Shown here: positions 27,001 through 30,000 of the stretch, one piece after another | Layout of the letters: every line of letters begins with the position of its first letter | How positions within the stretch are numbered: position 1 is the stretch's first letter | From: Haliotis rubra | Taxonomy: Eukaryota | Assembly: GCF_003918875.1 (NCBI RefSeq) | Contig: NW_025766026.1 | Location: 1,302,001 to 1,366,000, forward strand | Reading direction: 5' to 3' | Length of the DNA: 64,000 nt | Program-made: the position numbers

Positions 27001-30000
27001 TAACGCTTGTCATCGTATCCCAACTACACTTCGATGCTCATATTGTCGATCACTGGATTGTCTGGTACAGTCTTGATTATTTACAAACCGCAAAAATAAA
27101 AGTTTAATTACTAATTTGATCAATCTAGAATTCGTATTTGAGAGTTTGTCCGATCCTTACTTGCCTCTTATATTCGTTTGATTTCTTAAAGCCTATTGGA
27201 TATTTCCACAGTCACCCCAAACCATGCGCCATCAGTACAAGCGATGACGTCGACCTAAAGCGTCATCTAAACGACATTGGGACATTTAACATGCAAGATA
27301 TGACTCTATCACATCATTTATGAATAAATATGAATATGATCCATGGTAAAGGAACGATTCATGGGTGTAAAATGTAAAATATTCACATCATGTTTACAGT
27401 GCCAAGTGTTTCTGGTTCCAGACGCCAATGGCACCGTGACGTCAATGGACGTCGCGCCCTGCCCCGTGCAGCCATGCGTGTTCCATAAGGGCGACAACGC
27501 CACTGTCAAAATCTGTTTCACGGCACGTGAGTACTTTTCTCCAGTTACCATTAAACATTCTTAATATATGGTTTTATTAATATCTAAAATTGTTTGGTGG
27601 TAACTAAGTTTCTTATATACCTTTGTTTAATTATACACAAGCAGTGGTTCGCCTGTATGATTAGAGGATATATAGTACCCTGTTTCAGAAGGAATACATG
27701 TATTTCATTTTTTTAAACTTTTAGCATATACCTCTCCATGGGTATCTCTGACATGTTATCTTTGAAAATCAATAAATTTCCCCATTTCGGTTCAAATGTA
27801 CAACAATTCGAATATGGTAAAAAATGTTATACTTTCTTTTGCCCTTCGGGAAATTTTTCTTTTTTCACACGGCAGCAGCGGTGAACCTATCTCGATTTGA
27901 ATGTTCATGCTAATTAAAAACATTTTCAATTTGTGTTCATTTGTTCACAAAATACCGGTTTCAGCTGCGTCGTCCAATAACTTGACAGCTGAGATTGATG
28001 GGGTCGTGGCGGGGATCCCAGTCAAGTTCCCCATGCCGAACCCAAACGGCTGTTACCAGTCCGGCATCGGGTGCCCCATCTCCAAGGGCCAGACCTATTG
28101 CTACACCAACAACCTGGCAGTGCTGCCGTCATACCCCTCGGTAACTGATGATACTCCTCTCGTTAGCTTTAGTACCGTTATTTACACAGTTATAGAGAAC
28201 GTGTACATATACCCTCCTGCCGCCCAATCTACATCATATTATGTACAATCACCACATGTTGTTCCAGATCCGGCTCGTGGTCAAATGGTCACTCTTTGGG
28301 GACGACAAGGTCCCTGAGTTCTGCGTCCTGTTCCCCGTGGAGATAGATGGTGCTGGGAGGGACACTCCCACGGGGAGAGGGGTAGACACGCCCAGGGAGA
28401 GGGAGGTAGACACGCCCACGGGGAGGGAGGTAGACACGCCCACGGAGAGGGAGGTAGACACGCCCACGGAGAGGGAGGTAGACACGCCAACGGAGAGGGA
28501 GGTAGACACGCCCAGTCGTAAAGACGGGAATATTGAATGACTACTCCATGTGCAGTTTCAGTCCTGGGTCTTCCGCATTACCATGGAGACCAAGAGCAAC
28601 ATCCCCTGACCCCGTGGTTCTCACTGTCTCCACAGCCCCAGAGAATAAATTAATTAAGGAGTCAAAGTCGAGAATGATTGGGCAAGTGTAGACTGCCTCC
28701 GTTCAAGGCATGAAATAAAGAATTCCTTTTGGATAACCGCCATATAGCTGGAATATTGCTGAGTGCGGCGTAAAACAACAAGCTTCTGGATTATGTTTGT
28801 TTTTCATCTGGTAGAGATATGTTTTAACTAGAACAACTATGTAAGACTAAATGCCTACCTTTTTGTCAGCTTCCATAACTACTGTGATTGTGAGGTTGGA
28901 CATCGTGTCAGTGTCATAGGTCTTGTTGCACTTCCATTTCAATACAATTTTGCATTAGTCTGACACATTTGAACGATTTAGTGTATATATGATGTTTTAT
29001 TAATGGATTTGTATGTTTTGTGCTTCTGTAAAAACCTGTTCTCCTGCTCGTGTGCTGTACATGCGTTATAGGTATAAACCTACAATGTATATGTTTTAAA
29101 TGGATTTGTATGTTTTGGCTTCTGTAACAACCTGTTCTCCTGCTCGTGTGTTGTACATGTGACTGGGCGAAACGTTCGTTATAGGTATAAACCTACATTG
29201 TATATGTTTTAAATGGATTTGTATGTTTTGAGCTTCTGTAAAAACCTATTCCCCTCCTCGTGCGCTGTACATGCGACTGGGTGAAACGTATACATTGTAA
29301 ACCTTATCTTCATATTAAAAATGATAGCGACCAAAATGCGATAAATTATCTGAATTCCACACAAATAGCAGAAGATGAGAGCAAAGTCAGAATTCTAGTC
29401 ACGAGGCGAGTATTGTAACTCCAGGTCAAACTAATCGTGGCTAGTTAGTTTCTCCAGTCACGTGTACACCATATTTGGTTCATGCCCTGAACCAGTAATA
29501 ATATAGACACAAAGCTTGGTTGGTTACAAATTGCCTTTTTAATATAAGTCTCCATGTTTGTTTTGTGTATATATTTGAAATAAACAATATTACAGTTTTC
29601 TAAAATGTGAGAAGGCTCATTGTTTTTGAATAACCGTGAACCCAATTAAAATATTCTATGATCACGTGGCTTACAGGCTTTGAACTTAGTCAAACCCAGT
29701 CTAAGTAAACTTAAGCTCAGTATTATTCGTTACACTGCTTATAGCGAGACTGAGTCATACCATATTCTTTAGTGAGTGAGTATGCCATCAACATCATGGC
29801 GGGAGACACCAGAAAATGGGTTTCACACATTGTATCCACGTGAAGGATCGAACCAGGGTCTACGGCGTGACGAGCGAACGCTTTAACCATTAGGCTACCC
29901 TACCCCCACATTGGTCCTGTGACTGAGCCAAGTCGAGACCATCTGATGAGTGAGTATGGTTTTAAGCCGCTTTTAGCAATATTCCAGCAATATCACGGCG

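What the first reader, a model, noticed from the sequence alone, without database searches (positions are those of the whole stretch)
28340..28540. NPC2 copy 4 carries a C-terminal tail of about 60 aa built from an (EVDTPTER) coding minisatellite
Seen: copy 1 stops at PAEITD*, whereas copy 4 continues past PVEID into about 7 in-frame 24-bp units rich in T/P and charged residues, ending RKDGNIE*. Known: NPC2/ML proteins normally end right after the last strand. Inference: a disordered, possibly O-glycosylated and length-polymorphic tail on a secreted sterol or lipid binder.
Basis: partly seen in the sequence, partly recalled or inferred. Interest (0 to 1): 0.65.

Follow-up and report, generated by a model that had tools for sequence, protein, structure and literature searches.

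The report
Abalone NPC2 with repeat-built tail
An abalone copy of the cholesterol-carrier protein NPC2 ends in a floppy, charged 63-residue tail encoded by six and a half in-frame 24-base repeats; the tail is real, is shared by other abalone species and varies in length, but it is a modest curiosity rather than a new kind of system.

Summary
In the last exon of the fourth ML/NPC2 gene of the window (28268-28540, +), the reading frame runs past PVEID for 63 more residues. These are GAGR, six full 24-bp units (28361-28504, consensus DTPTEREV) and DTPSRKDGNIE, then the stop. The three other ML genes in the window stop 2-3 residues after the last strand.

The window is Haliotis DNA. A named H. rubra protein (NPC2-like isoform X2, 171 aa) is identical over all four exons but has exactly five units (40 aa) fewer. 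No canonical intron in the window can produce that difference. H. asinina and H. cracherodii orthologues carry the same tail with about 3 and 1-2 units and a conserved end.

The tail is strongly hydrophilic and has no Pfam family. Its only look-alikes are unrelated 8-residue repeat proteins.

Best reading: a translated, disordered, genus-wide coding-minisatellite tail on a true secreted or lysosomal NPC2 orthologue, whose length changes by slippage. O-glycosylation and any function of the tail are untested. Expression rests only on database gene models. Interest is low to moderate.

The parts
22719..22800 (+). Copy 4 exon 1: start codon and signal peptide (MNVLLCIAVCATLLFVAQA|ESINFKNC), followed by a GTGAGA donor
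   Evidence: tblastn of P0002 residues 1-27 is 100% identical here. Junction printed. The mature N-terminus of bovine NPC2 aligns to residue 20.
27422..27526 (+). Copy 4 exon 2: first part of the ML domain, with two N-glycosylation sequons (NGT, NAT)
   Evidence: P0002 residues 28-62 are 100% identical. AG acceptor and GTGAGT donor read. The boundaries were corrected by hand from the printed junctions.
27965..28140 (+). Copy 4 exon 3: core of the ML domain
   Evidence: Pfam PF02221, E 1.3e-09 on this exon alone. It matches P0002 residues 64-121. CAG acceptor and GTAACT donor.
28268..28540 (+). Copy 4 last exon: last strands of the ML domain (to PVEID at 28348), the tail and the stop
   Evidence: CAG acceptor at 28265-28267.
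28349..28537 (+). The 63-aa C-terminal tail (GAGR, 6 x DTPTEREV-type units, DTPSRKDGNIE)
28361..28514 (+). 24-bp coding minisatellite. Full units start at 28361, 28385, 28409, 28433, 28457 and 28481. A partial, diverged unit starts at 28505.
   Evidence: TRF period 24, 6.4 copies, 92% matches. Unit table. Pattern search.
28538..28540 (+). Stop codon TGA
28644..28719 (+). Two AATAAA polyadenylation-signal motifs (28644 and 28714), 104 and 174 bases after the stop
   Evidence: This is a motif match only.
2350..2436 (+). Copy 1 last exon, no tail (IRLVVKWEIQDQSGQDFICFEVPAEITD*)
   Evidence: Pfam ML E 0.002 on this exon, which is below the gathering score.
11096..11182 (+). Copy 2 last exon, no tail (…RIVCFTVNVKLAW*)
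14704..14790 (-). Copy 3 last exon, no tail (…RIICFTVPIQVLW*)

Best explanation
Copy 4 is the abalone orthologue of NPC2. It has a signal peptide and a complete ML beta-sandwich that should bind sterol or lipid like other NPC2 proteins. Directly after the last strand, with no intron in between, an in-frame 24-bp minisatellite adds a 63-residue tail. The tail is acidic and alternately charged, contains Thr-Pro, and most likely has no fixed structure. It is translated as part of the protein and dates at least to the common ancestor of the three Haliotis lineages seen here. Its length changes in whole units, probably by replication slippage or unequal exchange. Whole-unit changes always keep the frame because the unit is 8 codons. 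Shown: the anatomy, the family membership, the presence of the tail in three species, and the 5-unit difference from a named H. rubra protein. Inferred: that the tail is a hydrated, flexible appendage, possibly O-glycosylated on Thr next to Pro. Such a tail would leave the lipid pocket untouched and act on solubility, protease access or retention in mucus or matrix. Its copy number would be under weak constraint.
For: The frame is continuous from the ML exon into the repeat. The array is far beyond chance. P0002 (H. rubra NPC2-like isoform X2) is 100% identical over exons 1, 2 and 4 and over exon 3 up to its splice boundary, apart from a 40-aa gap of exactly 5 units. All 15 in-frame deletions of the window's last exon that reproduce P0002's end are 120 bp long, and none has GT-AG, GC-AG or AT-AC ends. 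H. asinina (39-aa tail) and H. cracherodii (30-aa tail) keep the same frame through the repeat to a recognisably conserved end, DTxSRxDxxxx. Tail identity is 53-74%, against 84-91% for the mature domain. H. asinina has Gly-type units first and a Glu-type unit last, which is broadly the order seen in the window. This suggests an old array of several units (inference). ML domain at residues 22-147, E 1.8e-21 to 2.6e-26. Solved NPC2 structures match at E 1.4e-34 to 6e-32, with six cysteines aligned. Tail composition: T12 E10 R9 D8 P7 G6 V6, GRAVY -1.62, net charge -8, well on the disordered side of the charge-hydropathy boundary.
Against: I saw no transcript or peptide data, so expression and translation of the tail rest on database gene models from three species. 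Disorder is argued from composition alone. The only structure model was poor throughout (mean pLDDT 42.5, 3-sequence alignment), so its low tail scores say little. Within the array the unit differences are 3 synonymous and 4 nonsynonymous positions, against 17:53:2 (synonymous: nonsynonymous: stop) possible single-base changes. That is too few to show selection on the peptide. The frame is preserved automatically by whole-unit changes, so an open frame is weaker evidence here than elsewhere. The acidic residue before the first Thr and the lack of Pro at +3 are not ideal for mucin-type glycosylation; this rule is recalled and was not tested. The second member of P0002's cluster (probably isoform X1) could not be seen, so I cannot say whether the window's 211-aa form is itself annotated.
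Confidence: 0.7

Rival explanations
1. The tail is translated but is a functionally neutral passenger. A minisatellite arose at the 3' end of the coding region and is tolerated because anything appended after the last strand does not disturb the fold. It has no role of its own.
For: Unit number differs freely (6, 1, about 3, 1-2) between near-identical or related proteins. The tail evolves faster than the domain. It has no family and no look-alike attached to an ML domain: 0 of 55 size-matched hits carry PF02221. The synonymous to nonsynonymous ratio within the array is not distinguishable from neutral.
Against: Three lineages keep the frame to the same terminal peptide without a nonsense or frameshift change. 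That is somewhat unexpected for neutral sequence across a genus-level divergence. This is an inference; no DNA of the orthologues was available to test it.
Confidence: 0.3
2. The 5-unit length difference is not a real allele difference. It would then be a repeat-count error in one assembly, or a cDNA or read artefact (reverse-transcriptase template switching between direct repeats) that was turned into 'isoform X2'.
For: All 15 possible deletion junctions lie within repeat units and none is a canonical splice site. That is the signature of template switching as well as of unequal exchange. The cluster members could not be listed.
Against: The array is only 154 bp with no indels between units, so single reads span it easily. 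Two other species also differ in unit number, so length change in this array is real at least between species.
Confidence: 0.15
3. The tail is a C-terminal propeptide that is cut off during maturation, for example at the basic residues, so the mature carrier is an ordinary tail-less NPC2.
For: Each unit holds an Arg and the end holds Arg-Lys. The ML domain is complete without the tail.
Against: The units contain no dibasic or furin-type motif; there are only single Arg residues flanked by Glu. No C-terminal propeptide is known to me for NPC2 proteins (recalled). The solved chains listed are 129-133 residues long, apart from one construct of 161.
Confidence: 0.1
4. The tail is not translated. 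The real transcript would end or splice differently, and the open frame across the repeat is a by-product of the repeat.
For: Repeats keep frames open by themselves. The third + frame and all three - frames are also open across the array itself; the - frame stops lie outside it.
Against: No intron is needed to reach the tail from the ML exon. Gene models in three species include it. The non-repeat end of the tail is conserved in the same frame. The AATAAA motifs lie after the stop, not before it.
Confidence: 0.04

Closest known systems
Vertebrate NPC2 / epididymal secretory protein E1 (solved structures 1nep, 5kwy, 6w5v chain D)
   Same: Signal peptide, a single ML beta-sandwich and six aligned cysteines. 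End-to-end alignment at E 1.4e-34 to 6e-32. The positions aligned to the sterol-pocket residues I recall as Phe66, Val96 and Tyr100 are Phe, Val and Tyr in the abalone protein; I read this from the alignment, and the numbering is recalled.
   Different: The vertebrate proteins end within a few residues of the last strand. The bovine chain is 130 aa and its alignment ends at residue 129. The abalone protein goes on for 23-63 more residues.
Named Haliotis database proteins: H. rubra NPC2-like isoform X2 (P0002, 171 aa), H. asinina (P0001, 187 aa), H. cracherodii (P0003, 178 aa)
   Same: The same gene. P0002 is identical to the window's exons outside the repeat. All three carry the tail and its terminal peptide.
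   Different: Unit number: 6 full units in the window, 1 in P0002, about 3 in P0001 and 1-2 in P0003. The window's 211-aa form did not appear as a cluster representative of its own in any search.
The three neighbouring ML genes of the window (copies 1-3)
   Same: Same exon plan and the same ML domain. They form a local tandem cluster.
   Different: About 30-48% identical to copy 4 where they align at all, over exons 2 and 3. They stop 2-3 residues after the last strand and have no repeat.
Coding minisatellites (VNTRs) in secreted proteins, such as mucin-type Pro/Thr/Ser tandem-repeat regions (recalled as a class)
   Same: In-frame tandem units that contain Thr and Pro, vary in number, have no fixed fold and sit on a secreted protein.
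   Different: The array is short (6.4 units). Charged residues (28 of 63) outnumber T+S+P (20 of 63). Glycosylation was not tested. Pfam's 'PT disordered repeat' and Cornifin families match some look-alikes but not this tail.

Membership tests
ML domain / NPC2 family (Pfam PF02221) | Profile match over the whole ML domain, above Pfam's gathering score | tested here: met
   Exon 3 alone scores 38.9 bits against a cut-off of 22.7. The orthologues P0001-P0003 match profile positions 2-133 of 133 at residues 22-147, with 77-93 bits. The window's own exons were not joined for this test.
ML domain / NPC2 family (Pfam PF02221) | N-terminal signal peptide, with the mature start aligned to that of NPC2 | tested here: met
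   Exon 1 encodes a hydrophobic leader ending AQA. Residue 20 aligns to residue 1 of the mature bovine chain. No signal-peptide predictor was available.
ML domain / NPC2 family (Pfam PF02221) | Six conserved cysteines, which form three disulfides in solved NPC2 | tested here: met
   All six cysteines of the bovine chain are aligned to Cys in the abalone orthologue (alignment). The abalone protein has two further Cys.
ML domain / NPC2 family (Pfam PF02221) | Binding of sterol or another lipid in the hydrophobic pocket | not testable with these tools
   The only indication is the conserved pocket positions in the alignment. A binding assay is needed.
Coding minisatellite (in-frame VNTR) | Head-to-tail units of about 10-100 bp, with a length divisible by three, inside an open reading frame | tested here: met
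   24-bp units, 6.4 copies, no indels, in the frame of the ML exon.
Coding minisatellite (in-frame VNTR) | Copy number differs between alleles or individuals | tested here: inconclusive
   There is a 5-unit difference from an otherwise identical named H. rubra protein that splicing cannot explain. The number also differs between species. No population or read data were available, and an assembly or cDNA artefact is not excluded.
Mucin-type O-glycosylated Pro/Thr/Ser repeat domain | Composition dominated by Ser/Thr with Pro (the thresholds of about 40% are recalled) | tested here: inconclusive
   T+S+P is 20 of 63 residues (32%), while D+E+K+R is 28 of 63 (44%). No Pfam repeat family matched at E up to 1.
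Mucin-type O-glycosylated Pro/Thr/Ser repeat domain | Dense O-glycans on the repeat | not testable with these tools
   No glycosylation predictor or glycoproteomic data were available.

The most novel reading that the evidence does not exclude
The tail is a functional, fast-evolving and individually variable module that gives this one NPC2 paralogue an extracellular job. For example, a glycosylated, charged tether could hold a sterol or lipid carrier in abalone mucus, shell matrix or the gamete environment, with allele length affecting that retention. Abalone would then have turned a housekeeping lysosomal carrier into a polymorphic secreted one by adding a minisatellite.
Probability: 0.1. Interest if true: 0.55.

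Novelty: new variant of a known kind. Interest (0 to 1): 0.3.

Why it matters
NPC2 and other ML proteins are compact single-domain carriers, so a repeat tail that persists across a genus and changes length is an unusual architecture for the family. It gives a simple handle for asking where this carrier works in a mollusc. The repeat unit is itself a clean tryptic peptide, and the array is a ready-made length marker for abalone genetics. It does not change what is known about how NPC2 binds sterol. Similar low-complexity tails are common on secreted proteins, so the wider significance is limited unless a function for the tail is shown.

Tried and rejected

2. A structure prediction of P0001 from the 3-sequence alignment gave mean pLDDT 42.5 and pTM 0.34, with no residue at 70 or above. 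It is too poor to use for or against disorder. I ran no fold search and did not spend the second fold job.

3. The tail alone against 1.84 billion representatives gave 232 proteins at E up to 0.001.
   - I read 11 of the 150 listed. Ten have unrelated 8-residue xxDTPxxx-type repeats and one has a 16-residue repeat. None resembles NPC2 by eye.
   - I scanned with Pfam 55 of the 150, chosen by me for a length of 143-315 aa. None of the 55 has an ML domain, 8 match Cornifin and 4 match the PT repeat at E up to 0.001, and most have nothing.
   - I rejected these hits as periodic low-complexity resemblance, not kinship.

4. The ESM Atlas search on the tail gave a best score of 0.80, which is in the chance range.

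5. The word-indexed searches found only the three Haliotis clusters: 3 of 4423 candidates, 3 of 1011 and 4 of 3226. The fourth hit is P0154, 147 aa, from an unnamed source, which I neither fetched nor used. Whether NPC2 of other molluscs has a tail therefore stayed unchecked. The only genome collection on offer holds bacteria and archaea, so I ran no locus search.

6. Splicing as the cause of the short H. rubra form was rejected.

7. Literature: five full-text searches found nothing on an abalone NPC2 tail.
   - Haliotis + NPC2: 11 papers.
   - abalone / ML domain / lipid-recognition: 38 papers, 20 listed.
   - abalone + epididymal secretory protein E1: 2 papers.
   - abalone + Niemann-Pick: 16 papers.
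   - NPC2 / C-terminal extension / ML domain: 35 papers, 15 listed.
   - I read passages of PMC11940790 (an NPC2 homologue in land-snail trail mucus) and PMC11376374 (fungal ML effector homologues with C-terminal extensions). For the rest I saw only search listings and abstract starts. Supplements were closed.

8. The exons of copy 4 were never joined into a spliced model for a search or a fold. Exons went in one at a time, and whole-protein work used the database proteins P0001-P0003.

Full report
**What is there.** The window is eukaryotic DNA with 41.9% G+C and one 198-base run of N at 51426-51623, far from the finding. The region 28268-28540 on the + strand is one open exon. It reads IRLVVKWSLFGDDKVPEFCVLFPVEID, then GAGR, then six full 8-codon units (DTPTGRGV, DTPREREV, DTPTGREV and three DTPTEREV), then DTPSRKDGNIE and TGA.
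- Tandem Repeats Finder gives 28361-28514, period 24, 6.4 copies, 92% matches, no indels, score 259.
- The consensus unit is found 5 times with up to 3 mismatches, always inside the array. None was expected in 100 shuffles.
- The tail after PVEID is 63 residues (28349-28537).
- The middle units are identical, and the edge units are the most diverged. The first unit has 4 differences from the consensus. This is the usual picture of an array homogenised in its centre.

**The gene.** I searched the window with the exon translations of this copy and with three database proteins. This places four exons:
- 22719-22800: start codon and signal peptide.
- 27422-27526.
- 27965-28140.
- 28268-28540.

All four have GT donors and AG acceptors. 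I corrected two of these boundaries by hand from the printed junctions. The lengths add up to 636 bases, which is 211 codons plus the stop. Exons were searched one at a time, and whole-protein work used database proteins. Intron 1 is 4.6 kb and holds a transposase remnant. Two AATAAA motifs follow the stop, at 28644 and 28714.

**Family.** Exon 3 alone matches the Pfam ML domain (E 1.3e-09). The full-length orthologues match profile positions 2-133 of 133 at residues 22-147. They align end to end with solved NPC2 structures (E 1.4e-34, 2.3e-32 and 6e-32). More weakly (E 3.6e-09 to 1.6e-07) they match mite group 2 allergens and an entry named 'Niemann-Pick type C2 protein' (3wea), which I recall to be an ant protein.
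- In the bovine alignment the mature N-terminus falls at residue 20, right after the leader.
- All six cysteines of the bovine chain are matched.
- That chain (130 aa) ends one residue after the position aligned to PVEID.

Copy 4 is therefore a true NPC2 orthologue whose domain is complete before the tail begins.

**Neighbours.** The window holds three more ML genes:
- copy 1: + strand, last exon 2350-2436.
- copy 2: + strand, last exon 11096-11182.
- copy 3: - strand, last exon 14790-14704.

They end EVPAEITD*, TVNVKLAW* and TVPIQVLW*. Only copy 4 has a tail.

**Relatives elsewhere.** The last exon found 3 proteins among 4423 candidates. All three are named NPC2-like proteins of Haliotis: H. 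asinina (P0001, 187 aa), H. rubra isoform X2 (P0002, 171 aa) and H. cracherodii (P0003, 178 aa). Two more searches added only one unnamed 147-aa protein, which I did not use.
- P0002 is identical to the window over exons 1, 2 and 4 and over exon 3 up to its splice boundary, except for a gap of 40 residues, which is exactly five units. The window is therefore H. rubra or something very close to it.
- I enumerated every in-frame deletion of the window's last exon that reproduces P0002's end. There are 15, all 120 bp long, and none has GT-AG, GC-AG or AT-AC ends.
- Ordinary splicing therefore does not make the short form. It reflects either a shorter allele or assembly, or a repeat-mediated cDNA artefact.
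- I could not list the cluster members to see isoform X1.
- The other two species carry the same tail in the same frame. H. asinina has NAGR, three units and DTSSREDRNTE. H. cracherodii has a degenerate first unit, one clean unit and DTFSRDDGSTK.
- Tail identity between species is 53-74% over the aligned columns, against 84-91% for the mature domain.
- From recall, these three species sit in different geographic lineages of the genus. The tail would then go back to an early Haliotis ancestor.
- H. asinina's order of unit types (Gly-type first, Glu-type last) is broadly the order in the window. This hints that an array of several units is ancestral and the one-unit H. rubra form is a deletion (inference).

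**Nature of the tail.** The composition is T12 E10 R9 D8 P7 G6 V6, with no Cys, aromatic or long hydrophobic residues. GRAVY is -1.62, net charge is -8, and 44% of residues are charged. This lies well on the disordered side of the charge-hydropathy boundary.
- There is no hydrophobic end for a membrane or GPI anchor and no ER-retention motif.
- No Pfam family matches the last exon at E up to 1.
- The tail alone gave 232 hits at E up to 0.001 in 1.84 billion representatives. The 11 I read are unrelated proteins with their own short repeats of the xxDTPxxx kind.
- None of the 55 size-matched hits I scanned carries an ML domain. A few match Cornifin or the 'PT disordered repeat'.
- The ESM Atlas gave only chance-level scores.
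- The AlphaFold model of P0001 was poor overall (pLDDT 42.5) and is not used as evidence.

**How it most likely works.** The ML domain should carry sterol or lipid as in other NPC2 proteins. This follows from family membership and conserved pocket positions, and binding itself was not tested. The tail hangs off the C-terminus as a flexible, highly hydrated, acidic polyampholyte.
- Thr next to Pro makes some O-glycosylation plausible, but I rate it at about one in three. Charged residues outnumber Thr/Ser/Pro, and the sequence context is not ideal (recalled rules, untested).
- Length changes in whole units by slippage or unequal exchange.
- Whether the tail does anything (solubility, protease shielding, retention in mucus or matrix) or is merely tolerated cannot be told from sequence.
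- Keeping the frame to a conserved end in three lineages argues mildly for some constraint.
- The free variation in unit number and the near-neutral pattern of differences within the array (3 synonymous and 4 nonsynonymous positions, against 17:53:2 possible) argue for weak constraint.

**Literature.** Five full-text searches found no description of an abalone NPC2 tail.
- A land-snail study reports an NPC2 homologue among trail-mucus proteins (PMC11940790, passages read). This shows only that molluscan NPC2-like proteins can be secreted into mucus.
- A fungal study mentions C-terminal extensions in ML-domain homologues (PMC11376374, passages read). That is a different lineage and sequence.
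- Supplements were closed, so proteome tables that might list this protein were not seen.

**Verdict.** This is a new variant of a known kind: an ordinary NPC2 with a genus-wide, length-variable, repeat-encoded disordered tail. The tail is already present in public gene models but, as far as my searches show, it has not been remarked on. Interest is low to moderate.

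Noticed in passing
window 1107-2436 (+), 9330-11182 (+), 15907-14704 (-), 22719-28540 (+): Four ML/NPC2-like genes lie within 28 kb as a local cluster, one of them inverted. Copy 4 is by far the closest to vertebrate NPC2. Copies 1-3 are about 30-48% identical to copy 4 where they align, over exons 2 and 3. First exons of copies 1-3 were not all located.
   Followed up: partly
window 24601-25002 (+): An open frame matching the DDE_Tnp_4 (PIF/Harbinger-type) transposase domain (E 8.8e-08) lies inside the 4.6-kb first intron of copy 4.
   Followed up: no
window 12713-13258 (+) and 32711-33208 (+): Further transposon remnants: a DDE_3 endonuclease piece (E 2.4e-06, just under the gathering score) between copies 2 and 3, and a hAT dimerisation region (E 1.2e-04) downstream.
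   Followed up: no
window 30326-30724 and 37719-38117 (+): Two open frames match the start and the end of the Dak1 domain (E 3.5e-09 and 1.6e-09). A dihydroxyacetone-kinase/triokinase-like gene therefore probably lies just downstream of copy 4 on the same strand.
   Followed up: no
window 1270-1440 and 28735-28790: A shared motif, roughly 'gctggaatattgct...gcggcgtaaaac', follows a tRNA-like stretch in the intron of copy 1. It recurs about 200 bases after copy 4's stop. It looks like a SINE-type element, seen only by eye.
   Followed up: no
window 45308-46565; 38867-39028; 42079-42252; 43637-43838; 59721-59874: Several non-coding tandem arrays: 67 bp x 18.8 (95% matches), 23 bp x 7.0 (100%), 53 bp x 3.3, 76 bp x 2.7 and 32 bp x 4.8.
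   Followed up: no
window 26253-26517: Complex short-period arrays (periods 11, 20-23, 31 and 42) built of GTCGAG/CTCGAC-type words, in opposite orientation on the two sides. They lie inside intron 1 of copy 4.
   Followed up: no
window 51426-51623: A run of 198 N, an assembly gap or masked stretch. It was left as it is.
   Followed up: no
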